Shown here: positions 5,728-61,207 of the stretch, piece after piece | Position numbering within the stretch: position 1 is the stretch's first letter | Layout: each line of letters starts with the position of its first letter | DNA from: a bacterium | GTDB lineage: Bacteria; Patescibacteriota; Andersenbacteria; UBA10190; CAIZMI01 | Assembly: GCA_030647555.1 (NCBI GenBank) | Contig: JAUSJG010000013.1 | Location: 12,086 to 76,085, forward strand | Reading direction: 5' to 3' | DNA length: 64,000 nucleotides | Program-made: the position numbers and the translations under genes | Notes under the pieces: generated by a model | Told to the model about the DNA's origin: nothing | Database searches by the model: none | What the model saw: only the letters and a program-made list of their open reading frames with translations

Positions 5728-5945
5728 TGTATCGATATGTCGATACAAAAGAACACTGATTGTTTGTTTTTACTGATTTTTAAAAATCCAACCTTGCTCT
5801 TGTATCGATATATCGATACACAAACAGGCAAAGGCGATATATTTTTTTGCGTTAATTAAATCATGTTGCGCCTGTATCGATATATCGATACACAGATGTT
5901 TGTATTGTTGTAAACGAGTTGCTCTTGTATCGATATGTCGATACA
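5728..5945. promoter_or_regulatory. Four copies of 20-bp palindrome TGTATCGAYATRTCGATACA (5728-5747, 5801-5820, 5873-5892, 5926-5945), each in a promoter-like context (ttgcNc-palindrome-tacaNN)
   Basis: Exact palindromes seen directly; last copy abuts start codon of the TrpR-like gene. Confidence 0.6.
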
Positions 5946-5953
5946 ATTGAGGC

Positions 5954-6364
5954 ATGGCAAAAGTAAAAACGCAAAAATTTACAGCGGAAGAAAAAGAAAA
6001 GTTTGTGAAAAATCTTGGTGCGACAATTCTGAAATATGATAAACCAGATAAAATGGAAAAGTTTTTGCGTGATTTTCTTACGCCAAGTGAAATTATTATG
6101 TTGGCAAGAAGAATCCAAATTGCCGATGGCCTTATAAAAGGAAAAGGGTACCGCGAATTGCACGAAAAATACGGGATTGGAATGAGTACAGTTCAGCTGG
6201 TTGATAAGTGGTTGAGGGTGACAGTTGAAGATTACAAATACGCGCCACCTGGAAAACGCGACAAGAAGCAGAAGAAAACACGTGGCTATTCAAGACGTAG
6301 CGGTATCCAGCTTTTTCTTTCTTATTCAACTGGTCCCAATCCGTATTTTATTTGGCAAAGCTAA
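5954..6364 (+). CDS. TrpR-like YerC/YecD family DNA-binding protein
   Basis: EIIMLARRIQIADGLIKGKGYRELHEKYGIGMSTVQLV matches TrpR_YerC/YecD HTH region. Confidence 0.7.
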   Translation: MAKVKTQKFTAEEKEKFVKNLGATILKYDKPDKMEKFLRDFLTPSEIIMLARRIQIADGLIKGKGYRELHEKYGIGMSTVQLVDKWLRVTVEDYKYAPPGKRDKKQKKTRGYSRRSGIQLFLSYSTGPNPYFIWQS

Positions 6365-7473: not shown

Positions 7474-8055
7474 ATGATCGCCTCTCTCACTGGCACAATT
7501 GAACACGTATCAATGGACTCTGTTGTTATGCAGGTGAATGGGATTGGTTATCGTGTTTATACTCTGGCTTCGGTTTTGAGTGTGCTGAAGGTTGGCGAGA
7601 AAATTACGATGAAAACATATTTAAGTGTACGGGAAAATGATTTATCGCTTTATGGGTTTCAGAATCCGCGTGAGCTGGCTTTCTTTAAATTGCTTTTGCA
7701 GGCGCCGGGGATTGGGCCCAAGACCGCCTTGAACGTGATGGCAATTGCAACGGTCGATACTTTGATTCGCGCTGTCGCTTCCGGTGATGTGACGCTTCTG
7801 ACAAAAGTTTCCGGAATCGGCAAAAAAACGGCGGAAAGAATTGTGGTTGAATTAAAAACAAAACTGGAAAAAGAACATCCGGAACTTTCAGGGAAGGGGC
7901 CGAGTGTTCACTCGGATGTTATATCGGCGCTTTCAAGTTTGGGCTACAGCCCAATTCAGGCGCGGGAAGTGGTGCGGCAGTTGCCGGAAGAATTGAAGGA
8001 TGCGGAAGCGGGCATTAGAGCGGCGTTGAAGATTTTGGGAAGCAATAAGAAATGA
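7474..8055 (+). CDS. ruvA: Holliday junction branch migration complex subunit RuvA
   Basis: MIASLTGTIEHV... OB fold, HhH motifs (GIGPKTA, GIGKKTAERI), C-terminal domain. Confidence 0.9.
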   Translation: MIASLTGTIEHVSMDSVVMQVNGIGYRVYTLASVLSVLKVGEKITMKTYLSVRENDLSLYGFQNPRELAFFKLLLQAPGIGPKTALNVMAIATVDTLIRAVASGDVTLLTKVSGIGKKTAERIVVELKTKLEKEHPELSGKGPSVHSDVISALSSLGYSPIQAREVVRQLPEELKDAEAGIRAALKILGSNKK

Positions 8056-8190
8056 ATTTGAAATTTGAAATTTTTAATTTGAAATCAATTTGAAAGGATT
8101 AAATTTGAAATATCTAAAACAGCGTTTTCAAATTAAAACATTTAGTTATTTCAAATTGATTAAAAATTTCAAATTTCAAATTAAAAATTG
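8056..8190. repeat. Long AT-rich hairpin (aatttgaaatttgaaatttttaatttgaaatcaatttgaaa ... inverted); near-identical copy at 36080-36212, partial at 54521-54555
   Basis: Inverted arms read directly; likely terminator/MITE after ruvA. Confidence 0.6.
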
Positions 8191-8198
8191 ATGAAATA

Positions 8199-9289: not shown

Positions 9290-9425
9290 TGAATTATCAA
9301 TTTTCAATGATCAATTATCAATTAATTATCAAATTTTAAATTTTCAAATCACGCCAACGTTTTGATAATTTAATCATTGAACATTGATCATTAATTGAAA
9401 ATTGGGAATTGAAAATTGAAAATTT
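9290..9425. repeat. Long AT-rich hairpin (atcaattttcaatgatcaattatcaattaa...); related copy 51716-51830
   Basis: Inverted arms after femAB stop. Confidence 0.5.
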
Positions 9426-9504
9426 ATCAACCACTGGGTACGATGCAGTCAATACAACAACAAGTTGTTGACGATAAACACCAATAATAATATAAAGATT
9501 CATC

Positions 9505-20375: not shown

Positions 20376-20400
20376 ATTCCCGCAGGTGCGGGAATTTTGG
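20376..20400 (+). terminator. Hairpin aattcccgcaggtgcgggaatttt after rpoC
   Basis: 9-bp GC stem + T4. Confidence 0.4.
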
Positions 20401-20409
20401 TATTAAGTC

Positions 20410-20540
20410 CAAAAATCCCAATGACCAAACCCCAATGTCCAACAAAAACCCAATTATCAAAATTCCAAAGTTGCGATTTTTTTTGGTTATTAAAATTTTT
20501 GAATTTTGTTGGGCATTGGTCATTGGGGTTTGGGATTTTG
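20410..20540. repeat. Long hairpin element (tcccaatgaccaaaccccaatgtccaacaaaa ... ttttgttgggcattggtcattggggtttggga); family copies 24997-25125, 32453-32605, 53893-54027, 57531-57660
   Basis: Inverted arms ~32 bp; same arm sequence after rpoC, ftsK, ychF, uvrC, uvrA. Confidence 0.65.
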
Positions 20541-20622
20541 AAACCTAAATATGAATAACCAAACAAAAATATCCAATAATGGCTAAAGTAAGCCTCAAAA
20601 GACTAACTTTCATATTATATTA

Positions 20623-21398: not shown

Positions 21399-21443
21399 AA
21401 AACATTAATTTGTGAACAGTAAATTTTGTGAAATTATTCATTG

Positions 21444-21472
21444 CCAAACGGCCTCTTTTTTGCTATAATTAC
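21444..21472 (+). promoter_or_regulatory. Promoter TTGCCA-17-TATAAT, 3 nt before ATG 21476 (leaderless-type)
   Basis: Hexamers read directly. Confidence 0.4.
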
Positions 21473-21475
21473 AAT

Positions 21476-21700
21476 ATGGAATTCAGACAATCGCTCTTTT
21501 GGGACACCGATCCCAAGAAAATTGATCCGCAAAAACACGCGCAATACATCATTGAGCGCGTGGCGGATTTTGGTAACGATAAAGAAGCGCGTTGGGTCTT
21601 GGATTTTTATGACAAACCGCTGCTTCAAAACATTATTTCTAAATCGCGCTGTTTAAGGCCGCGCACAAAAAAATTATGGACGCTTTTGGTCAACAGATAG
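21476..21700 (+). CDS. Small protein (MEFRQSLFWDTDPKKIDPQKH...), putative partner/antitoxin of the downstream AbiEii-family gene; overlaps it by 25 nt
   Basis: ORF directly after promoter; overlap suggests coupling. Confidence 0.4.
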   Translation: MEFRQSLFWDTDPKKIDPQKHAQYIIERVADFGNDKEARWVLDFYDKPLLQNIISKSRCLRPRTKKLWTLLVNR

Positions 21701-22347
21701 TTTGGCAATACCAAACACTGCCTGCTAACACAAAAAAAGCGTTAGATTTTTTGTCCGCGGAAAATTGGTTGGAAAAAACCGATTGGTATTTGGCAGGAGG
21801 CACAGCCTTGGCATTGCAGGCGGGGAATCGAAAATCTTTCGATTTAGATTTTTTTACTGTTCAAAAAGATTTTGATGGTAAAAAACTGCTTGCCAATTTT
21901 TTGGGTAATGATAATTGGAAGACAGATATTGAAGATACAAATACGATCTATGGGCAATTATTTGGGGCTAAAGTAAGTTTTATTGCTTACCCGTTTTTTA
22001 TCCCAAAGCAAAGGTTTATTCAACATGGTTCTGTGTGCGTGCTTGATAAGACTGACGTTGCGGTGATGAAAATAACGGCCATTTCTCAACGGGGCAGGAA
22101 GAGAGATTTTTTTGATTTATATTGGTGCGCGACAAACATCGAATCATTGGAAAACATCGTTAAACGGCTTAAAGAACAATATCCGTTTATTGCGCATAAT
22201 TATCACCACATTCTTAAAAGTCTAGTGTATTTTGACGATGCGGAAGGCGATCCCGAACCGGAGGTTTATTTTGATGCCACATGGGAAAAAGTTAAAGAAT
22301 ATTTTACAAAAGAAGTTCCGTCGATTGTCGACAAGATAGTGAATTAA
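21676..22347 (+). CDS. Nucleotidyltransferase AbiEii/AbiGii toxin-family protein
   Basis: WYLAGGTALALQAGNRKSFDLDFF motif typical of AbiEii NTases. Confidence 0.65.
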   Translation: MDAFGQQIVWQYQTLPANTKKALDFLSAENWLEKTDWYLAGGTALALQAGNRKSFDLDFFTVQKDFDGKKLLANFLGNDNWKTDIEDTNTIYGQLFGAKVSFIAYPFFIPKQRFIQHGSVCVLDKTDVAVMKITAISQRGRKRDFFDLYWCATNIESLENIVKRLKEQYPFIAHNYHHILKSLVYFDDAEGDPEPEVYFDATWEKVKEYFTKEVPSIVDKIVN

Positions 22348-22402
22348 AAGACGGTAAAAACGACACGCATCGGGTAGGCGTACACATTTTGTGTTCAAGA
22401 AA

Positions 22403-22587
22403 GTAACCGCTCACAGGTCGAGGAAAAGACGCGTCAGTTACCTTCAAGGTGGAGCACGCTTGCTCTTCCTTGAAGGTGGTATAGGTTAGCGTTGACGACG
22501 AACCAATACCACTTCCGATGAAGTGCCTCGGCACCACATCGGAAGTGGGAGCGATGATCTTTTTTTCCTTAACCTGTGAGCGGTTAC
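22403..22587. mobile_element. Structured TIR-bounded element, copy 1 (185 bp): 25-bp terminal inverted repeats gtaaccgctcacaggtcgaggaaaa / ttttccttaacctgtgagcggttac, two internal hairpins; flanked by caagaa direct repeat
   Basis: Direct comparison with 34615-34877 and 58081-58280. Confidence 0.7.
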
Positions 22588-22636
22588 CAAGAATAATCTG
22601 AACAAACAAGCCAAAATATGCTATAATCAGTCCACT

Positions 22637-24996: not shown

Positions 24997-25125
24997 TGGT
25001 TATTAAACCCCAAATCCCAATGACCAATGTCCAACAAAACCATAATTACTAAAATCCCAAAACGCGTATTTGGTCATTAGTATTTTGGAATTTTGTTGGA
25101 CATTGGGGTTTGGGATTTGGGGTTT
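24997..25125. repeat. cccaatgaccaa-family long hairpin after ftsK
   Basis: Arm sequence shared with 20410-20540. Confidence 0.6.
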
Positions 25126-25188
25126 AAAAGGCACTTGTGTCGGTGAAGGCTAGGAGAAAATCAATTAGTAATGCTAAAGTAAATCCAT

Positions 25189-28519: not shown

Positions 28520-28924
28520 TTACCGTGCATATGTGGAGATAATTTTTTTGTTCAGTTTTCTTTCCATTTCAAAAAAGGGGGCGTAGTTGTGATAAATCTT
28601 GAACGCATTTAGTTTAAATTTTAATAAATCCCGCCTGTCGCCATAGAGCAGGATTGGATTTTTGCTTACTTGGAACGACAAAAGCGGATTGGCTTTGTTT
28701 AAAATTGTTAGATCGACTTCTTTGTTGAAGATTGCGGAAAGTTCATTGATTAAATCAACATGTTCCTTAAAAAAAACGTCTTTCATGCCTAAAACGGCAA
28801 TGTCTAAATCGCTGTCCTTTCTTTGTTTTCCAGTCGCAAAAGAACCAAAAACAACCACCAATTTCAGTTGAAATTTTTTGGTGAGTTCAGTGATCTTCGT
28901 TTTTTGATCTTGGGTCGTTTCCAT
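28520..28924 (-). CDS. Nucleotidyltransferase (MNT-type), no adjacent HEPN partner
   Basis: FGSFATGKQRKDSDLDIAV motif. Confidence 0.65.
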   Translation of the reverse strand: METTQDQKTKITELTKKFQLKLVVVFGSFATGKQRKDSDLDIAVLGMKDVFFKEHVDLINELSAIFNKEVDLTILNKANPLLSFQVSKNPILLYGDRRDLLKFKLNAFKIYHNYAPFFEMERKLNKKIISTYAR

Positions 28925-30134: not shown

Positions 30135-30315
30135 AGGGCTTGATAATTAATAAACGCCTTATCTTATGTCCAATCCATCTCCAAATACAACCGCTTCTCA
30201 ATCAAAAATCTTTCAACGTATGTCAAATACGTCTCAAGATTTTGTTCAATCAAAGACAGTTGTCTTTGAAGCGCATTGAACATAATCTTAAAGCGTTTAT
30301 TAATTACCAAGCCCT
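30135..30315. mobile_element. MITE-like element copy B (181 bp) with 23-bp TIRs agggcttgataattaataaacgc / gcgtttattaattaccaagccct, inserted 4 nt after recA stop
   Basis: TIRs and ~85% identity to copy A (1-154) and reverse copy C (60882-61061). Confidence 0.7.
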
Positions 30316-30980: not shown

Positions 30981-30995
30981 CGTATCTAGTATGAG

Positions 30996-31075
30996 GTATA
31001 TTGTATCTGGTATTTAGTATATTGATTTATCGAGACTGAATAAACCCATATACTAAATACAATATACTATATACA
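30996..31075. repeat. gtatat-family AT-rich inverted-repeat element
   Basis: Arms gtatattgtatctggtatttagtatat / catatactaaatacaatatactatatac. Confidence 0.55.
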
Positions 31076-31118
31076 AAAAACATTATTGCTTCGCTTTACA
31101 GCAATAACCGATAAAACT

Positions 31119-32337: not shown

Positions 32338-32452
32338 AACTCGCTAGAATGTAACACGAGGGGCTAAATTGTGCAAGCACGAGGGGGCTTGGATATTGTG
32401 ACTTGGGGATTTATTCGGAATTAAAGCTTGATTAGTGGTAACTCAACCTTTT

Positions 32453-32605
32453 AAATCCCAATGACCAAACCCCAATGTCCAACAAAACTTCAAAATCTTA
32501 ATGACCAAAATGACACTTCTTTGGGATTTTAGAAATTAGAATTTTGTTGCCTGCCGGCCGAAGCTTTAGCGAAGGCTGGGTCATTGGGATTTGGAGTTTG
32601 GAGTT
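32453..32605. repeat. cccaatgaccaa-family long hairpin with nested ~30-bp insertion (ctgccggccgaagctttagcgaaggctggg)
   Basis: Arm sequence shared; aagctttagcgaag also at 28366-28379. Confidence 0.55.
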
Positions 32606-33838: not shown

Positions 33839-34240
33839 TTGCGATATTATTGGCGCATGACGGAAGAAAATTTAGTGATTTATTGGCAAGAAGGGGCGCG
33901 AGAAGCGTGGAAAACCGCGGAGGCTTTAATGGCATCAAAACGTTATGTGCATACTCTTTTCTTTTGCCATTTAACACTAGAAAAGGCGTTAAAAGCTTGT
34001 TATGTCGATGTGAACAAGGTTCCCTCTCCACCAGTACATGATTTAAACTGGTTGGCGGAAGAGGCAAAAGTTAGTGTGAGTGATGATGATAAAAATATAC
34101 TTGCGGAAATATCAAAATTTAATATCGCCGGGCGTTATGAAGATTATAAATTGCGTTTGCACGAAGAGGCTACTTTTGAATACGTCAGTCGCTGGGTGGG
34201 TGAAACAAAAAGGCTGATGGATGTTTTATTGGCCGAATAA
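33839..34240 (+). CDS. HEPN domain protein (toxin component)
   Basis: HEPN-like helices with AGRYEDY R-x-H type motif region; overlaps MNT gene by 20 nt. Confidence 0.55.
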   Translation: MRYYWRMTEENLVIYWQEGAREAWKTAEALMASKRYVHTLFFCHLTLEKALKACYVDVNKVPSPPVHDLNWLAEEAKVSVSDDDKNILAEISKFNIAGRYEDYKLRLHEEATFEYVSRWVGETKRLMDVLLAE

Positions 34241-34583
34241 TATGATTATAGAAAATAAACCCGACCAAGAAGCGATTCAAATCGCACAAAGGTTTGGTGA
34301 TTTGGTAAAAAAACAGGGCGTTGATGTGCGAAAGGTCTTGTTGTTTGGATCTCGCGCGCGCGGTGGCTGGAAACCATGGAGCGATGTCGATATTTGCGTT
34401 ATCTCGCCTCAATTTGGCAAGAATGTTTCGGAAGAAATGGGCATGTTGTTGCGTCTTACCGTACAATTAAAATCGCCATTTCCCGTTGAGCCGATTCCTT
34501 TCGGCTTGGATGATCTTGAAGACAAATTCAGCACGCTTGCGAACGAAATTCGTAAGTATGGCGTTTCTGTAGAAATTAAATAA
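34221..34583 (+). CDS. Nucleotidyltransferase (MNT-type antitoxin)
   Basis: LFGSRARGGWKPWSDVDICV motif. Confidence 0.7.
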   Translation: MFYWPNNMIIENKPDQEAIQIAQRFGDLVKKQGVDVRKVLLFGSRARGGWKPWSDVDICVISPQFGKNVSEEMGMLLRLTVQLKSPFPVEPIPFGLDDLEDKFSTLANEIRKYGVSVEIK

Positions 34584-34614: not shown

Positions 34615-34877
34615 GTAACCGCTCACCGGTTAAGGAGAAATTTGAGTCGTCGCTCTCACTTCCGATGTGGTGCCGACCTGTCCCCCATAGCCTTGGCAAC
34701 GGGGGAGGCACTTCATCGGAAGTGGTGTGGGTTAGGGTTTGATAATCGTAGTAACGTTACGCGAACCATAACCACTTCCAAGGAAGCCATGCCTGTCCTC
34801 CGTAGCCTTGTGCGAAGGGGGAAATGGCCACCTTGGAAGTGATCACGACAGCAATCCATCGACCGGTGAGCGGTTAC
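34615..34877. mobile_element. Structured TIR-bounded element, copy 2 (263 bp), inverted relative to copies 1/3 and carrying two nested ~30-bp mini-palindromes in its hairpin loops
   Basis: TIRs gtaaccgctcaccggttaagg / ccggtgagcggttac; internal cacttccgatg...catcggaagtg hairpin. Confidence 0.65.
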
Positions 34878-36048: not shown

Positions 36049-36079
36049 AATAGACTGTTATTGATATATTAAGATAATT

Positions 36080-36212
36080 AATTTGAAATTTGAAATTTTT
36101 AATTTGAAATCAATTTGAAAGATATAAATTTGAAATACCGAAAACAGCGTTTTCAAATTATGATATTAAATTATTTCAAATTGATTAAAAATTTCAAATT
36201 TCAAATTAAAAA
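36080..36212. repeat. Long AT-rich hairpin, near-identical to 8056-8190
   Basis: Direct alignment. Confidence 0.65.
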
Positions 36213-36297
36213 TTGGGTTGTCTTTATCTGACAACAAAGTTGTATTACATAAAATGGCTAATATGAGCCATAAATAGAGCGGGTAAATACCCTCCTA

Positions 36298-46970: not shown

Positions 46971-47012
46971 CCGATCACGGAACGGAGCAACCTTGCTCCG
47001 TTCCGTGATCGG
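46971..47012. repeat. Palindromic element family 1 (ccgatcacggaacggagcaa-cc-ttgctccgttccgtgatcgg); supplies the last ~12 codons and stop of the HepT gene
   Basis: Overlap of palindrome with 3' end of ORF 46975-47439. Confidence 0.65.
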
Positions 47013-47439
47013 TGTTGGTCGCCACTACCTTGCTGATTATTTGCACGAATTGTTCAAGATCTCCCAAATTGTTTTGGAGGTTTTCGTATACTATTTCCGG
47101 ATCAACGTCCAAATAATCGTGGACCAAGACATTGCGGAAACTTTTCGCTTTTGTCAGTTTGACAGCGAGTTCTTCGGACAAGATTCCCGAGTTTGCCAAT
47201 ATTTCAAATTCACTATTTTTTTCGCCGGGCTTTTGTAATTTGTTTTCAATTATTAAATAACGCGCGATATCAACAACGGTCTCCAGTCCTGTTTGGAACA
47301 GGCGTTCCACCGAAAGTTCGTTGCGTTCATCGGCAAAGTATTCGTTTTTCGACAGCGCTTGGTATTTTTTCAGCTTTTCCAGTGTTTCTTCCAGCGAGGA
47401 TAATTTATTGACGACTATTTCTTTAGTTATTTCAGTCAT
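46975..47439 (-). CDS. HepT-like HEPN (DUF86) toxin; C-terminus read through a palindromic element
   Basis: RNVLVHDYLDVDPEIVY Rx4HxY motif. Confidence 0.7.
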   Translation of the reverse strand: MTEITKEIVVNKLSSLEETLEKLKKYQALSKNEYFADERNELSVERLFQTGLETVVDIARYLIIENKLQKPGEKNSEFEILANSGILSEELAVKLTKAKSFRNVLVHDYLDVDPEIVYENLQNNLGDLEQFVQIISKVVATNTDHGTEQGCSVP

Positions 47440-47443
47440 TATA

Positions 47444-47890
47444 TTATGATGCGGTTAAATTGTTTAAGAAAGATTGGTTGTAAAGTTTCAGAAAATCTTT
47501 TTGGTCGTCGTATTCACGTAAAACCGCCATCTCGAATTTTACGCGTTCTCCATGTTCTTTTTCCGCTAGAACAATACCTTCACTGATCACCGCCATCCGC
47601 AAAGCGAGCGGGGCTTGGTTGAGTACGGAAATATCCAGCGCTTCTGTTGGTACATCAAAAATTTTTCCAATTATTTCGTGCGCGATTAAACGCGCGTCAA
47701 ACTGTGTCTGTTTTGAAGCATTGGGATCCAAAAATAAGGCGATGTCGATATCGCTTTCCTCATGTATGTCGCCGGAAACGGCGGAACCGAAAATATAGGC
47801 AAACAAAATCGGAAGGCCGGCCATTTCTTTTTCGGCCAGTTTGTTTAAATCGTCTGTGACAGTAATTTTCTTCGCGCCAAAGCGTTTCAT
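47444..47890 (-). CDS. Nucleotidyltransferase (MNT-type antitoxin)
   Basis: FGSAVSGDIHEESDIDIAL motif; 4-nt gap to HepT. Confidence 0.75.
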   Translation of the reverse strand: MKRFGAKKITVTDDLNKLAEKEMAGLPILFAYIFGSAVSGDIHEESDIDIALFLDPNASKQTQFDARLIAHEIIGKIFDVPTEALDISVLNQAPLALRMAVISEGIVLAEKEHGERVKFEMAVLREYDDQKDFLKLYNQSFLNNLTAS

Positions 47891-51675: not shown

Positions 51676-51715
51676 GTGGGTATTATACACCAAACATGCG
51701 AAAAATTTTCAATAA

Positions 51716-51830
51716 TCAATTTCCAATTATCAATGAATTATCAATTAACTAATTTTCAATGACGACGCCGAATTGAAAATTGGAATTTGATCATTAATTG
51801 ATAATTGGCCATTGAAAATTGATACTTATA
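51716..51830. repeat. AT-rich hairpin (caataatcaatttccaattatcaatgaattatcaatta...), related to 9290-9425
   Basis: Inverted arms. Confidence 0.45.
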
Positions 51831-54668: not shown

Positions 54669-57530
54669 ATGGCAAATGTTATCACCATCCGCGGGGCGCG
54701 CGTTCATAACTTAAAAAACGTCGATGTAACCATTCCACGCGACAAGCTGGTGGTTATCACCGGACTCTCGGGTTCCGGTAAATCTTCTCTCGCTTTTGAT
54801 ACACTTTACGCGGAAGGGCAACGTCGTTATGTTGAATCGCTTTCCGCTTACGCTCGGCAGTTCTTGGGTTTGATGGACAAACCGGACGCCGACCAAATTG
54901 ACGGGCTAAGTCCGGCAATTTCCATCGATCAAAAATCCGGGACACGCAATCCGCGTTCTACGGTAGGTACTGTTACAGAAATTTACGATTATCTTCGTTT
55001 GCTTTTTGCCAGAACCGGTGTCCCGCATTGTCCGCAGTGTGGAAAGATGATTCGTCGTCAAACAATCAAGGAAATTACCGATCAGATTTTGAATTTGCCG
55101 GACGGCTCAAACATTATGGTGTTGGCGCCCAAGATTCGCGACCGCAAAGGTGAGCACAAACAAATTTTCAAAGAAATTGAACAGCAGGGTTATGTGCGCG
55201 CTCGTGTCGACGGCTCGGTTTATGATTTGCAAGAAGCGCAACAATTGGAATTGGATAAACAAAAAAAGCATTCTATTGAGGTTGTGATCGATCGCTTGTT
55301 AATTGATAAGCGCAACTTGGATCGTCCGCGCATTGCCGACTCGGTAGAAACAGCAACCCGTATTGGTGGGGGCATTGTGATCATCGAAGATCGCACCGCG
55401 AAAAAAGATTTTGTTTATTCTGAACAATTTGCTTGTTCGGATTGTGGGATCAGTTTGACCGAAGTGGAACCAAGAATGTTTTCGTTTAATAGTCCGCACG
55501 GCGCGTGTCCGGCTTGTACCGGTCTTGGTACGCAATTGGAAGTAAACGAAGAACTTGTAATTCCTAATCGCAAATTAACTTTGGCCGAAGGCGCCATTAA
55601 ACCGTGGAGTCGCCGGATGCGTGGCAGTTCATGGGCGATGTGGATTTTGGAAGCAGTGGCTAAAAGAAACCATTTTTCGTTGGATGTGCCGGTTAGTAAG
55701 TTATCGGAAGAAGTAATGGAAATTATTATGTTTGGTATGGGTGACGAAAAAATCACTGTGAAAACCGAAGAGGGTACGACGATGGAAACAAAATTTGAAG
55801 GTGTGGTTCCCAATTTGATGCGTCGCTACAAAGAAACGGATTCGGATTATGCCAGAAGCGAAATCGAGCGTTATATGGTGAGCAAGCCCTGTCCGGTTTG
55901 CAAAGGGAAGCGTCTTAAGCCGGAATCATTAAGCGTTTTCTTGGCCGGAAAAAATATGCACGAAGTTGTGTCATTAACTATCGCTGATAACTACAAACTC
56001 TTTTCTGATCTCGCGCAAAACCCGAAATCACACGAAACTTTTGGTCCACGTGAGCAAATTATCGGCAAGCAGGTATTACTGGAAATTCGTGCTCGCTTGA
56101 AGTTTTTACTCGACGTCGGTTTGGATTATCTGACTTTAGATCGTTCGGCCGCCACATTGGCCGGCGGTGAAGCGCAACGGATTCGTTTAGCCACACAAAT
56201 TGGTTCCGGTCTCGTTGGGGTGCTTTATATTTTGGACGAACCGTCAATTGGTTTGCATCAACGCGATAATTCGCGCTTGATTGGCACATTGAAAACTTTG
56301 CGTGATTTGGGTAACTCGGTAATTGTTGTGGAACACGACGAAGAGATGATTCGTAATGCGGATTATGTGATTGATGTCGGGCCGGGCGCCGGTGAACACG
56401 GCGGGCAAATTGTTTTCGCGGGAACGGCGAAAGCATTGGAAAAATCCAACACGCTTACCGGCAAATATCTCGCCGGAAAAATGGAAATTCCTGTGCCGAA
56501 GAAAAAGCGCGCCGGAAATGGAAAGACATTGGTCATCAAAGGCGCGACCGAACACAATTTACAAAACGTCGATGTAAAAATTCCGTTGGGTAAATTTGTT
56601 TGCGTGTCCGGTGTTTCCGGTTCCGGAAAATCGACATTGATTAACGATATTCTCTCGAAGGTCTTGGCCAAAGAATTCTACGGGGCCAAAGATTTGCCGG
56701 GTAAACACGATAGTGTTCAAGGTCTGCAAAATCTCGACAAAGTAATTATGATTGATCAATCGGCAATTGGTCGCACCCCACGCAGTAATCCTGCCACATA
56801 TACCGGCGTCTTTACCGCGATTCGCGAATTGTTTTCGGCCACTCCGGAAGCAAAAGTGCGCGGTTATGATGCCGGACGTTTTTCTTTCAATGTACGTGGT
56901 GGTCGTTGTGAAACCTGTCAGGGTGACGGAGTGATTCGGATTGAAATGCAATTTTTACCGGACGTTTACGTGGAGTGCGAAGAGTGTCACGGTAAACGTT
57001 ACAATCGCGAAGCGTTGGATATTCTTTATAAAGGAACAACGATTGCGGAAATTTTGAATATGACGGTGGAACGGGCGCACGAATTTTTCCGTGCTATTCC
57101 GGCGATTGAATCGAAATTGGCCGTGCTTGAACAAGTTGGTCTTGGCTATGTCCACTTGGGTCAACCGGCGACGCAACTTTCCGGTGGTGAAGCACAGCGC
57201 ATTAAATTGGCCACAGAACTTTCCCGTCGCGCCACCGGTAAAACAATTTATATTTTGGATGAACCGACAACGGGTTTGCATTTCGATGATGTCCGTAAAT
57301 TGTTAACTGTTTTGCATGCGTTGGTCGACAAAGGTAATTCTGTTTTAGTCATCGAACACAATCTCGATGTTCTTAAAGCGGCCGATTGGATTATTGATTT
57401 GGGCCCGGAAGGTGGAAACAAAGGCGGAGAAATTATCGCCGAAGGTACGCCGGAAGAAGTATCACGCGTGGCGAAGAGTTACACAGGGCAGTATTTGAAG
57501 GGGATGCTGGGGAAGAAAAAGACAAAATAA
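54669..57530 (+). CDS. uvrA: Excinuclease ABC subunit A (UvrA)
   Basis: Two ABC ATPase modules ([14 protein letters not shown]; [13 protein letters not shown]), zinc fingers. Confidence 0.97.
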
Positions 57531-57660
57531 ATCCCAATTTCCAAATCCCAAAACCCAACAAAATCCCAAAATCATAATGACCAAAACGGTTAGTCTTTGG
57601 AATTTAGGTGATTAGGATTTTGTTGGACATTGGTCATTGGGGTTTGGGTTTTATTACCAA
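57531..57660. repeat. cccaatgaccaa-family long hairpin after uvrA
   Basis: Arm similarity. Confidence 0.55.
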
Positions 57661-58080: not shown

Positions 58081-58280
58081 GTAATCGCTCACTGGTTAAG
58101 GAAAAAGCCGTCGCGGACACATCCAAGGTGGCCATTCATGGCTTCCTTGGATGTGGTGTAGGTTCGCGTAACGTCGTTACGACGCTACTAACCCACACCA
58201 CTTCCGATGAAGGCCAAGCGTGGCCCACATCGGAAGTGAGTGCGACGATTCAAATTTTTCCTCGACCTGTGAGCGGTTAC
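58081..58280. mobile_element. Structured TIR-bounded element, copy 3 (200 bp)
   Basis: TIRs gtaatcgctcactggttaaggaaaaa / tttttcctcgacctgtgagcggttac; internal hairpins with compensatory changes relative to copy 1. Confidence 0.7.
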
Positions 58281-58932
58281 ACCGGTCACGCTTGACAAAA
58301 ACTGCCAACGGGTGTATAATTACCCGTTATTGTTTTTTCAAACCCAAAGGAGATAACGAATGACGACGTAAAGAGCGCCTTGGCAGAATTGGCGCTAGAA
58401 CAGAAATACCCTCAAAAGTCGCAGTAGGCGATGAGGGAATTACTGCCCACAGCCTTGGAAAGTGGCTGAAACCGATGGAGTGGATGCGAGAAAACGTTTG
58501 GCTGGCGTCTAACCAATATTGGGACAGACATCCTCGTGTTCTACAAACCGGTAAAAATTTCCGCGGTGTCCGGGTGAGGGATCAACTTTGTGCCCATGAA
58601 ATCGATTACGACCTTCATGGGGCTAACGCAAAGGCCGATAAACTCGGGCTCAACTCTGAATCCCACTGGACAAAGGATTGTCCGCCGACAGGCAACCGTG
58701 ATCCGGCTTTGGTGGTAACTAAAGGGTAGCCGCAAGTAGTTTGTTTTGAGGAGGTCGCGATTCAACTCGCCACCTCCTCGCTTTCTCTTTGCTCGCAGTA
58801 TTGCGAGTAAAGATGAAGGTTGCTTTGGTTCGAATCTGTCGGGACGAAAGCATAATTGTTTTTTCAAAATCAGGGCGGCTGTCATGGGCCGCGAGACAGA
58901 TCCAACAAATTGTTCATGAAAGGACATCAACC

Positions 58933-60881: not shown

Positions 60882-61061
60882 AGGGGACTGACGTAAATAA
60901 ACTGTCCATATTCTGTTCAATACGCTCTGAATACAAGTACTGCGACCGAACAAAATTTCGAAGCGTACTAGCAGTACGTTGAGAGATTTTGTGACCGAGC
61001 AGTGCTTGTAGTCAGAGATGTAGTGGACATAAGATGGATAGTTTATTTACGTCTGTCCCCT
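60882..61061. mobile_element. MITE-like element copy C (180 bp, reverse orientation) with 26-bp TIRs aggggactgacgtaaataaactgtcc / ggatagtttatttacgtctgtcccct
   Basis: Core aligns to reverse complement of copy A. Confidence 0.65.
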
Positions 61062-61132
61062 TAGGGCAAGTTTTTTGAGATCGTCGTAGGAAAGCGAACG
61101 GTCTGCTTTGCGTTTTCCTGTGACCTGCGTAC

Positions 61133-61207
61133 CGATCACGGAACGGAGCATCCCCCTTCGCACAAGGCTACGGCGGGACAAAGAGGTTGCTCCGTTCCGT
61201 GATCGGT
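61133..61207. repeat. Palindromic element family 1 with 36-bp insertion (tcccccttcgcacaaggctacggcgggacaaagagg) in its loop
   Basis: Arms identical to 46971-47012; insert also present (reverse) in 34794-34823. Confidence 0.65.

What the first reader, a model, noticed from the sequence alone, without database searches (positions are those of the whole stretch)
22403..22587. Structured 185-263-bp element with 25-bp terminal inverted repeats and covarying internal helices (3 copies)
The copies lie at 22403-22587, 34615-34877 (inverted) and 58081-58280. All share termini of the form gtaaccgctcacNggt...accNgtgagcggttac and two internal hairpins.

Between copies 1 and 3 the hairpin stems differ by compensatory changes. 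Hairpin A is ccttcaagg/ccttgaagg in one copy and atccaagg/ccttggat in the other. Hairpin B, cacttccgatg/catcggaagtg, is conserved. The loops vary freely.

That covariation argues for a selected RNA or DNA secondary structure rather than neutral decay. Copy 1 is flanked by a caagaa direct repeat, a possible target-site duplication. Copy 2 carries two nested mini-palindromes in its loops.

No transposase is present, so this is either a MITE of a structured kind or a small ncRNA family, possibly a relic of an IS-end or guide RNA.
Basis: seen in the sequence. Interest (0 to 1): 0.7.

Follow-up and report, generated by a model that had tools for sequence, protein, structure and literature searches.

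The report
Structured miniature transposon in a Patescibacteria genome
The three repeats are copies of a small, gene-less "jumping" DNA element (a MITE) with ends like those of IS66 insertion sequences; this is a known kind of element, notable here for its cloverleaf-like internal hairpins, its ultra-small-bacterium host, and its position 11 bases upstream of gene promoters.

Summary
Three intergenic copies (22403-22587, 34615-34877 inverted, 58081-58280) share 16-25-nt terminal inverted repeats (GTAACCGCTCACNGGTYRAGGA). Each has a core of hairpin A, a central palindrome and hairpin B.

The hairpin stems keep pairing through compensatory changes: 28 basal pairs are 98.6% paired and 6 pairs changed on both sides.

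The best reading is a MITE, not an RNA gene:
- A paralogue in a sister lineage has a perfect 8-bp target-site duplication. Copy 1 has CAAGAA-A/CAAGAATA.
- The copy-1 site is empty in two relatives.
- The sister lineage carries a subfamily with the same ends but a different interior.
- TIR changes are mostly one-sided, which points to sequence constraint rather than pairing.
- Neither strand folds consistently better.
- Rfam gives no match.

A 21-25-nt TIR starting GTAACCG plus an 8-bp duplication matches the published IS66-family signature (20-30 bp, GTAAGCG, 8 bp). No autonomous partner was found.

The host is an uncultured Patescibacteria (CPR) bacterium.

One feature is unexplained. A TIR end lies 11-12 nt upstream of a sigma-70 -35 box at five independent loci, and 16 and 18 nt at two more. 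Other palindrome families in the window show no such spacing.

Verdict: a new member of a known kind, of moderate interest.

The parts
22403..22587 (+). Copy 1 of the element (185 nt), orientation A-centre-B
22403..22427 (.). Copy 1 left terminal inverted repeat (GTAACCGCTCACAGGTCGAGGAAAA)
   Evidence: I20: 25 nt, 92% complementary to 22563-22587
22437..22480 (.). Copy 1 hairpin A. It has a basal stem ACCTTCAAGG/CCTTGAAGGT, a T/T internal loop and an apical stem GAGCA/TGCTC.
22510..22547 (.). Copy 1 hairpin B. It has a basal stem CACTTCCGATG/CATCGGAAGTG, an AA/CA internal loop and an apical stem GTGC/GCAC.
22563..22587 (.). Copy 1 right terminal inverted repeat
22396..22402 (.). Left copy of the copy-1 target-site duplication (CAAGAA-A, one base lost)
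   Evidence: The site is empty in L255 and L258.
22588..22595 (.). Right copy of the copy-1 target-site duplication (CAAGAATA)
22599..22627 (+). ftsK promoter (TGAACA-17-TATAAT with TG), starting 11 nt after the element. This is context, not part of the element.
   Evidence: It is conserved in L255 and L258.
34615..34877 (-). Copy 2 (263 nt), inverted, long form with hairpin extensions in both loops
34657..34724 (.). Copy 2 B-type hairpin (CACTTCCGATG...CATCGGAAGTG) with a roughly 30-nt loop extension
34773..34841 (.). Copy 2 A-type hairpin (CACTTCCAAGG...CCTTGGAAGTG) with a roughly 30-nt loop extension; the same module occurs in L237
34889..34917 (+). cfa promoter (TTGGCA-17-TATAAA), starting 11 nt after the element. 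This is context.
   Evidence: It is conserved in L259, L260 and L262, which lack the element.
58081..58280 (+). Copy 3 (200 nt), orientation A-centre-B
58116..58157 (.). Copy 3 hairpin A (CACATCCAAGG/CCTTGGATGTG)
58199..58238 (.). Copy 3 hairpin B (CACTTCCGATG/CATCGGAAGTG, apical stem GGCCA/TGGCC)
58292..58320 (+). Consensus promoter TTGACA-17-TATAAT, starting 11 nt after the element. This is context.
   Evidence: It is conserved in L243.

Best explanation
The three repeats are copies of a miniature inverted-repeat transposable element (MITE): a non-coding, non-autonomous derivative of a DDE-type insertion sequence. It lives in the genome of an uncultured Patescibacteria (CPR) bacterium.

Shown:
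- The element is bounded by 21-25-nt terminal inverted repeats beginning GTAACCG.
- Insertion duplicates 8 bp of target.
- Copies are present or absent at homologous sites in close relatives.
- Subfamilies share the ends and the outer ~35 nt but differ in the interior.

Inferred:
- The ends are bound in trans by a transposase of an IS66-family-like element located elsewhere in the genome or population. The basis is that TIR length, the terminal heptamer (6 of 7) and the 8-bp duplication match that family's published signature.
- The interior of the window subfamily is an inverted duplication of one hairpin unit around a central palindrome, so either DNA strand, or an RNA copy, folds into a long stem capped by three hairpins.
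- The hairpins are kept intact by compensatory changes. The cause is either selection (for example recognition of an extruded or single-stranded hairpin during transposition, or a host-level effect) or arm-to-arm correction.
- For the host, the elements most likely act only as bulky, stable palindromes between an upstream operon and the next promoter. In two of three cases that operon is a toxin-antitoxin module with no other predicted terminator. If transcribed, the element would be a 3'-end hairpin or transcriptional insulator.

Unexplained: the elements sit 11-12 nt upstream of -35 boxes (8-bp duplication plus 3 nt). This may be a target preference, or it may be the only tolerated slot in very short intergenic regions.
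For: Ends and copy number:
- Three copies with six TIR matches, against 0.93 expected.

Mobility:
- L255 13563-13688 (= L256) has a perfect 8-bp duplication, GACGCGAT, on both sides.
- Copy 1 has CAAGAA-A / CAAGAATA.
- L255 and L258 keep both flanks of the copy-1 site (gtacacWttttgtgttcagg ... ftsK promoter) without the element.
- The cfa upstream site lacks the element in four relatives that keep the same promoter.

Subfamilies:
- L243 and L255 share the TIRs and the outer ~35 nt with the window copies, but their interior is a single 16-bp hairpin.
- L229 is a 5'-truncated copy, and L234 has the core without TIRs.

Constraint pattern:
- TIR changes are mostly one-sided or unpaired: 7 unpaired cells of 96 and only position N covaries.
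- In hairpins A and B, 13 positions covary with 5 unpaired cells of 197.

Not an RNA gene:
- Sense and antisense folding energies differ by 6.3 kcal/mol or less for the five complete copies with TIRs at both ends, with no consistent direction. L237, whose one TIR is degenerate, differs by 13.5 kcal/mol.
- No Rfam match.

IS66 signature:
- PMC11946415 (citing Ross et al. 2021) states that IS66 has a 20-30-bp terminal IR starting GTAAGCG and 8-bp direct repeats.

MITE definition and the usual partial loss of duplications:
- PMC6382973: bacterial MITEs are 50-600 bp, have lost the transposase gene and are mostly flanked by TIRs. Only 40% of MITEAba12 copies had duplications.

Host:
- The named UvrA, FtsK and Cfa relatives are Andersenbacteria, Kerfeldbacteria and other Patescibacteria.
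Against: - No autonomous element with these ends was found.
- Copies 2 and 3 and L243 have no recognisable duplication.
- Only about 8 distinct copies were seen, and no copy was seen in about 110 kb from relatives with roughly 82-90% protein identity (L248, L251, L258, L262).
- The terminal heptamer differs from the IS66 consensus at one base, and TIR similarity beyond it was not compared.
- The element is GC-rich and highly structured, unlike typical AT-rich bacterial MITEs.
- At the copy-3 site, the sister lineage has the other subfamily at the same distance from the same promoter. Simple one-off insertion does not explain that.
- The fixed 11-nt spacing to -35 boxes is not a known property of IS66-type elements.
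Confidence: 0.7

Rival explanations
1. A family of structured non-coding RNA genes (an sRNA, or a guide or scaffold RNA left over from an IS end). The terminal repeats would form the closing stem and the covarying hairpins would be functional RNA helices.
For: The predicted folds are very stable (z-scores of -9 to -12). Stems show compensatory changes with conserved internal-loop bases. The stems contain some G-T pairs on the sense strand.
Against: - No Rfam family matches, even at E<=1.
- The element is nearly self-complementary, so both strands fold alike, and the better-folding strand is inconsistent across copies.
- No promoter reads into the element.
- Copy 2 is inverted relative to its neighbours, yet occupies the same position.
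- Target-site duplications and an empty site show insertion.
- The interior is swapped in the sister subfamily while the ends are kept.
- Changes in the closing 'stem' are mostly non-compensatory.
Confidence: 0.07
2. A REP/REPIN-like palindromic repeat spread by a RAYT (IS200/IS605-type Y1 transposase) or maintained as a host terminator or mRNA-stabiliser family. It would resemble BIMEs, which are mosaics of separable palindromic units.
For: The modules are separable. L234 has the core without TIRs, and L243 and L255 have the TIRs with another core. The genome holds several other intergenic palindrome families directly after stop codons. Hairpins are the conserved feature. In the window, no separate terminator is predicted between the upstream genes and the elements.
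Against: A perfect 8-bp duplication and a near-perfect second one are not produced by Y1 transposases, from established knowledge of IS200/IS605 and RAYT. The 21-25-nt TIRs are conserved at the sequence level. No RAYT-like gene was found among the ORFs scanned. In L243 a canonical terminator precedes the element, so the element is not needed as one.
Confidence: 0.08
3. A recombination site of a gene-cassette system, analogous to integron attC. The element would mark the 3' end of mobile cassettes (toxin-antitoxin genes) that integrate just upstream of housekeeping promoters.
For: - Copies 1 and 2 directly follow TA modules: DUF6922+AbiEii and HEPN+nucleotidyltransferase.
- The DNA to the left of the elements is variable between relatives, while the promoter to the right is conserved.
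- The ends contain AAC...GTT.
- The ends are conserved while the interior is variable and branched, as in attC sites.
Against: - The 8-bp duplications indicate transposition, not site-specific recombination.
- The terminal stem is a perfect 16-bp duplex without the unpaired spacer and extrahelical bases that define folded attC (established knowledge).
- No integrase or array of sites is present.
- Copy 1 is a simple insertion into a conserved spacer.
- L261 has a TA module at the cfa site without any element.
- TA modules are frequent in this window anyway.
Confidence: 0.05
4. A pair of operator sites for a dimeric DNA-binding regulator. The TIR core GTGAGCGGTTAC is a quasi-palindrome around a central CG, and its first 9 bases, read as TGTGAGCGG, equal lacO1. 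The pair would sit upstream of promoters and loop the DNA between them.
For: The TIR end lies at a fixed 11 nt from the -35 box. The TIR sequence is conserved, rather than its pairing.
Against: - No solo sites exist in 64 kb.
- The downstream genes are unrelated (ftsK, cfa, small ORFs).
- Duplications and an empty site show the unit is inserted as a whole.
- A site centred near -52 is not a usual repressor position.
- The lacO resemblance rests on memory and is short.
Confidence: 0.03

Closest known systems
IS66-family insertion sequences and MITEs derived from IS ends
   Same: The TIR is 21-25 bp and begins GTAACCG, against the family's 20-30 bp beginning GTAAGCG. The target duplication is 8 bp (for the family; here). 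The element has no coding capacity, is 126-263 bp long, and has subfamilies that share only the ends. That is the pattern described for bacterial MITEs.
   Different: No IS66-type transposase (TnpA/B/C) with these ends was found. One of the seven terminal bases differs. The interior is an elaborate, GC-rich, three-hairpin palindrome with compensatory substitutions. The host is a Patescibacteria bacterium. Five independent insertions lie 11-12 nt from a -35 box.
Correia elements (Neisseria), ERIC/YPAL and RUP/BOX: bacterial MITE-like repeats that fold into long hairpins when co-transcribed (from established knowledge)
   Same: These are short intergenic TIR-bounded repeats lying close to genes. 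They can fold into long stems and can influence neighbouring transcription or mRNA stability.
   Different: There is no sequence relation. Correia elements duplicate TA and carry their own promoter or IHF sites. The present family duplicates 8 bp, has a branched core rather than a simple rod, and lies next to resident promoters rather than carrying one.
REP/BIME/REPIN palindromic units
   Same: Both are mosaics of separable palindromic modules in intergenic regions, and hairpin structure is conserved.
   Different: REPINs lack long TIRs and target duplications and depend on RAYT. Here TIRs and 8-bp duplications are present.
Integron attC sites
   Same: Both have conserved ends containing AAC/GTT, a variable and sometimes branched interior, and a position at the 3' end of variable genes, including TA modules.
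   Different: The terminal duplex is perfect, without an unpaired spacer or extrahelical bases. Target duplications are present. There is no integrase and no array.

Membership tests
MITE (bacterial miniature inverted-repeat transposable element) | Small size (about 50-600 bp) and no coding capacity | tested here: met
   Copies are 126-263 nt. The only ORF over copy 1 is a 101-aa TTG antisense frame running across the palindrome. The definition is taken from PMC6382973.
MITE (bacterial miniature inverted-repeat transposable element) | Terminal inverted repeats | tested here: met
   The termini are 16 nt perfect to near-perfect and extend to 21-25 nt.
MITE (bacterial miniature inverted-repeat transposable element) | Target-site duplication of fixed length | tested here: met
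   L255/L256 has GACGCGAT, 8 of 8. Copy 1 has 7 of 8 with a 1-nt deletion. Copies 2 and 3 and L243 have none. Partial loss is usual: 40% of MITEAba12 copies keep one.
MITE (bacterial miniature inverted-repeat transposable element) | Insertion polymorphism (filled versus empty homologous sites) | tested here: met
   The copy-1 site is empty in L255 and L258 with both flanks conserved. The cfa site is empty in L259-L262.
MITE (bacterial miniature inverted-repeat transposable element) | Multiple dispersed copies in one genome | tested here: met
   There are 3 copies in 64 kb and 2 copies in about 35 kb of the sister lineage. The genome-wide number is unknown.
MITE (bacterial miniature inverted-repeat transposable element) | A cognate autonomous element with the same TIRs supplying transposase | not tested
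   None lies in the window (ORF scans).
IS66 family (as source of the ends) | 20-30-bp terminal IR starting GTAAGCG | tested here: inconclusive
   The length is met (21-25 nt). The first seven bases are GTAACCG, 6 of 7 (versus). The rest of the IR was not compared with family members.
IS66 family (as source of the ends) | 8-bp direct repeat at the insertion site | tested here: met
   against the family description.
IS66 family (as source of the ends) | DDE transposase (TnpC) with accessory TnpA/TnpB | not tested
   No such gene was found among the window ORFs scanned. The rest of the genome is not available.
Structured ncRNA family | Match to a curated RNA family | tested here: not met
   Rfam 15 at gathering threshold and at E<=1 gives only tRNA-Leu and chance miRNA-like hits outside or below threshold.
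Structured ncRNA family | Strand-specific signal: one strand folds better, G-U rather than A-C, and an own promoter or terminator | tested here: not met
   One search shows no consistent strand preference. Searches show no promoter reading into the element.
Structured ncRNA family | Discrete transcript | not testable with these tools
   No expression data are available.
Integron attC site | The folded strand has R/L boxes separated by an unpaired central spacer with extrahelical bases | tested here: not met
   The terminal 16 bp pair perfectly in copies 1 and 2, and the next irregularity is a single mismatch. The attC features are taken from established knowledge.
Integron attC site | Nearby integron integrase or an array of sites | tested here: not met
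   No recombinase was found among the window ORFs scanned. The copies are 12 and 23 kb apart.
REP/REPIN | No target duplication; mobilised by a RAYT | tested here: not met
   8-bp duplications are present. No RAYT-like protein was found among the window ORFs scanned.

The most novel reading that the evidence does not exclude
The family is a promoter-homing transposon. Its insertion machinery would place the element so that the 8-bp duplicated target ends 3 bp upstream of a sigma-70 -35 hexamer, for example by sensing promoter-bound RNA polymerase or promoter DNA geometry. The structure-conserved cloverleaf core would be the recognition platform for that machinery. Alternatively, it may have been retained by the host as an insulator between mobile toxin-antitoxin cargo and essential-gene promoters. 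Either would be an unreported target-selection mode for a bacterial DDE-type element, and a functional repeat class in genome-reduced Patescibacteria.
Probability: 0.15. Interest if true: 0.65.

Novelty: new member of a known kind. Interest (0 to 1): 0.38.

Why it matters
Patescibacteria have tiny, streamlined genomes and are thought to carry few repeats. A search of the held paper library found no listed paper that combines MITEs with this group. An active MITE family there, alongside several other intergenic palindrome families in the same 64 kb, shows that these genomes tolerate selfish or structural DNA in their very short spacers.

Such repeats also break metagenome assemblies. The exact-match contigs for the neighbouring genes end inside or next to the element.

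If the fixed 11-nt distance from -35 boxes reflects targeting rather than survivorship, it would give a handle on how a transposase reads promoters. It would also provide natural markers of promoter positions in organisms that cannot be cultured.

Tried and rejected
1. The genome-contig scan with the 15-base terminus returned only single chance hits in unrelated phyla. None of them has the hairpin. The pattern was too short and the scan was wasted.

Most hits belong to unrelated repeat families that happen to share the 11-nt stem. I considered, and rejected, that this shows a cross-phylum protein-binding motif. With this many hairpins in the database, such matches are expected by chance. Only L229, L234 and L237 are true homologues.

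3. Viral-contig scans gave one unrelated phage operator-like hairpin (L122) and one host flank beside a prophage (L254).

4. Exact-protein look-ups for the window edges brought no new DNA from the same genome.

5. I searched for a larger composite unit (TA genes plus element) bounded by a second end or a distant duplication. None was found.

6. Intrinsic-terminator reading: a T-run follows hairpin B in copies 1 and 3, but not on the sense strand of copy 2, and never directly after a stem. This is not a consistent feature.

7. The LacI-operator idea and the attC idea are covered under the rival explanations.

8. blastn against the plasmid and phage collections gave no match.

9. A full-text search for the terminus sequence found only unrelated fish primers.

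Full report
**Observation**

The 16-nt terminus GTAACCGCTCACNGGT occurs six times in the window with up to three mismatches. That is exactly the six ends, against 0.93 expected, and no shuffle reached six.

The inverted repeat extends to about 25 nt with one irregular position (I20). The consensus over all ends seen is GTAACCGCTCAC-N-GGT-YR-AGGA. A profile built from the three copies scores copy 2 far better on the minus strand (214 versus 69.5 bits), so it is inverted.

Every copy is intergenic, between genes on the plus strand:
- Copy 1 lies between a DUF6922/AbiEii toxin-antitoxin pair and ftsK.
- Copy 2 lies between a HEPN/nucleotidyltransferase toxin-antitoxin pair and cfa.
- Copy 3 lies downstream of uvrA and a 130-aa ORF.

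**Anatomy**

Each copy folds, on either strand, into a long closing stem formed by the TIRs plus an A-rich/T-rich extension. That stem is capped by hairpin A, a central palindrome (GGTT...AACC) and hairpin B. The folding z-scores are -10 to -12 against shuffled sequence.

Hairpin B is essentially the reverse complement of hairpin A. Each has:
- a basal 11-13-bp stem of the type CACTTCC-R-A-K-G;
- a small conserved internal loop (T/T in A, AA/CA in B);
- a 5-6-bp apical stem of free sequence;
- a loop that is either 4 nt or carries a roughly 30-nt extra hairpin.

The extended loops occur in both hairpins of copy 2 and in L237 in the opposite orientation. The element is therefore an inverted duplication of one hairpin unit.

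Within an element, the local hairpins are perfect while A and B are not exactly complementary to each other. It is therefore the local hairpins that are maintained.

**Covariation**

I aligned five cores: three from the window plus L234 and L237 from another metagenome. The 28 basal pairs are 98.6% paired. Six pairs changed on both sides, reached by 0-2 of 500 shuffles. Sliding the partner gives 38-48% pairing.

A hand table that includes the apical stems gives 13 covarying positions in hairpins A and B, with 5 unpaired cells of 197. In the 16-bp terminal stem, by contrast, 7 of 96 cells are unpaired and only position N covaries.

So the hairpins are conserved as structures, and the ends are conserved as sequences. 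Arm-to-arm correction of palindromes is a non-selective alternative to selection.

**RNA or DNA**

- Rfam has no match at gathering thresholds or at E<=1.
- Folding energies of the two strands differ by 6.3 kcal/mol or less for the five complete copies with TIRs at both ends, and the better strand is the sense strand in three cases and the antisense strand in two. L237, with one degenerate TIR, differs by 13.5 kcal/mol.
- No promoter-like site reads into the element.
- Copy 2 is inverted yet sits in the same place relative to its neighbours.

None of this supports an RNA gene.

**Host and relatives**

The exact proteins of the window belong to an NCBI record named only 'MAG: bacterium', on a contig of 122,775 nt. 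The nearest named relatives of UvrA, FtsK and Cfa are Andersenbacteria, Kerfeldbacteria and other Patescibacteria. Close unnamed relatives exist at 97, 90 and 87% UvrA identity.

**Evidence for transposition**

1. In the sister lineage (FtsK 92%), L255 13563-13688 (= L256) is a 126-nt element with the same TIRs. It is flanked on both sides by GACGCGAT, a perfect 8-bp duplication.
2. Copy 1 is flanked by CAAGAA-A and CAAGAATA, an 8-bp duplication with one base lost.
3. L255 and L258 keep both flanks of the copy-1 site (gtacacWttttgtgttcagg on the left, the ftsK promoter on the right) with nothing in between.
4. Four relatives keep the cfa promoter TTGGCA-17-TATAAA without the element.
5. The sister lineage's copies (L243/L244 and L255/L256) share the TIRs and about 35 nt at each end with the window copies. 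Their interior is a single 16-bp hairpin.
6. L229 is a 5'-truncated copy, and L234 retains the core without TIRs.
7. No copy was seen in about 110 kb from relatives with roughly 82-90% protein identity.

Together these findings are the defining pattern of a MITE as described for bacteria. PMC6382973 also notes that only 40% of MITEAba12 copies keep their duplications.

**Which transposon family**

PMC11946415, citing the TnCentral/ISfinder description, states that IS66 has a 20-30-bp terminal IR starting GTAAGCG and characteristic 8-bp direct repeats. The present ends are 21-25 nt, start GTAACCG and make 8-bp duplications.

This is a good but incomplete match. No transposase was found among the window ORFs scanned, and there are no further TIR-like sites in the window. 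I had no scans left to look for the autonomous partner. The IS66 link is therefore an inference.

**Position relative to promoters**

The outer end of one TIR is followed by a sigma-70-type promoter at these distances:

| Locus | nt from TIR end to -35 | Promoter |
|---|---|---|
| Copy 1 | 11 | TGAACA-17-TATAAT with TG |
| Copy 2 | 11 | TTGGCA-17-TATAAA, conserved in relatives |
| Copy 3 | 11 | TTGACA-17-TATAAT |
| L243 (same site as copy 3) | 11 | TTGACA-17-TATAGT |
| L255 | 11 | TTGACA-17-CAGAAT |
| L254 | 12 | TTGACA-17-TACAGT |
| L237 | 16 | TTGACA-17-TAGTAT |
| L229 | 18 | TTGACA-17-TACAAT |

- The spacer sequences are unrelated.
- In L255 and copy 1 the spacer is the 8-bp duplication plus 3 nt.
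- The distance from the upstream stop codon to the other end varies (55, 31 and 12 nt).
- Other palindrome families in the window show no such spacing.

Two explanations remain. One is a real target preference. The other is that, in these compact spacers, this is the only slot that spares both the upstream terminator and the promoter; in L259 and L262 the terminator ends 8-9 nt before the -35 box. I cannot separate them with eight loci.

**Surroundings**

The DNA to the left of the elements differs between relatives, while the promoter to the right is conserved:
- Between rpoC and ftsK the window has about 2.2 kb of extra genes, including the AbiE pair.
- Upstream of cfa, different relatives have different genes, including a different MNT/HepT pair without any element.
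- At the copy-3 site the sister lineage has two extra genes, a canonical terminator and then its own subfamily element.

This raised an attC-like cassette reading. The duplications, the perfect terminal duplex, the simple insertion at the copy-1 site and the lack of any recombinase argue against it.

**Verdict**

This is a MITE family with IS66-like ends and a structure-conserved, three-hairpin palindromic core, in a Patescibacteria genome. It is a new member of a known kind. The covariation is real but does not make it an RNA. The fixed spacing to promoters is the one feature worth following up.

Noticed in passing
window 20394-20550, 25003-25127, 32440-32605, 57526-57655: A second repeat family: AT-rich palindromes of about 130-160 nt built on AAATCCCAATGACCAAACCCCAATGTCCAACAAAA and its complement. 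Three of the four copies lie directly after the stop codons of rpoC, ftsK and uvrA. They may be unusual long terminators or another MITE family.
   Followed up: partly
window 8052-8192 and 36078-36214; 9292-9427 and 51704-51827: Two more two-copy families of long AT-rich intergenic palindromes: AATTTGAAATTTGAAATTTTTAAT... and ATCAATTTTCAATGATCAATTATCAATT.... They sit right after ruvA, cfa, a FemAB-like gene and before uvrC. Further single palindromes lie at 30982-31086, 30135-30315, 60882-61061 and 61131-61207.
   Followed up: no
window 5728-5892 and 5954-6364: Three copies of the 20-bp perfect palindrome TGTATCGATATATCGATACA (5728-5751 imperfect, 5801-5820, 5873-5892) lie just upstream of a Trp-repressor-family gene. 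They look like autoregulatory operators.
   Followed up: no
window 58307-58372; L243 7590-7655: The copy-3 promoter is followed by a hairpin overlapping the -10 box plus a T-run, and then a Shine-Dalgarno sequence with a mini-ORF, ATG ACG ACG TAA (Met-Thr-Thr). In the sister lineage the mini-ORF reads Met-Thr-Thr-Asn and is followed by another hairpin. This may be a leader-peptide attenuator.
   Followed up: no
window 21428-22347, 28520-28924, 33839-34583, 46975-47890: Toxin-antitoxin genes are unusually dense for a small genome: DUF6922+AbiEii, HEPN+MNT, MNT+HepT and a lone MNT. The sites upstream of ftsK and cfa hold different genes in each relative.
   Followed up: partly
L125-L242 (e.g. 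L127 4067-4098, L137 608-639); JGI metagenomes Ga0183260, Ga0136612/14/17/20/32: An abundant repeat in a high-GC organism: CACTTCCAATGGGTTCGAACCCATTGGAAGTG flanked by extra direct copies of CTTCCAATGG (up to four in tandem) and a second palindrome, CCCACGTGAACGTGGG. It shares the 11-nt stem with the window element only because the search pattern demanded it.
   Followed up: no
L134, L158, L203, L227, L241: Another unrelated repeat, from low-GC contigs in five other metagenome samples: CACTTCCGATGAGAAGCA...TGCTTCTCATCGGAAGTG next to CCCCCCTATAGAGTATAAATACTCTATAGGGGGG.
   Followed up: no
L234 6320-6640: A 420-nt spacer between convergent genes is filled with a chain of hairpins. It contains two copies of AAAATCCCCAGCGAGG...CTGGGGGG, a Y-shaped palindrome (CGTAGGGG...CCCCTACG) and the A-centre-B core without TIRs.
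   Followed up: partly
L254 1-5915: The IMG/VR contig with an element end is a host-prophage junction. In order it holds the element end, a small gene, tRNA-Lys and tRNA-Ser, then a large serine recombinase, a terminase and a DNA methylase.
   Followed up: partly
L121, L253, L259-L261: Contigs carrying exact or near-exact copies of the genes next to the elements are very short. L121, an exact match, starts inside copy 2, which suggests that these repeats break short-read assemblies of this lineage.
   Followed up: no
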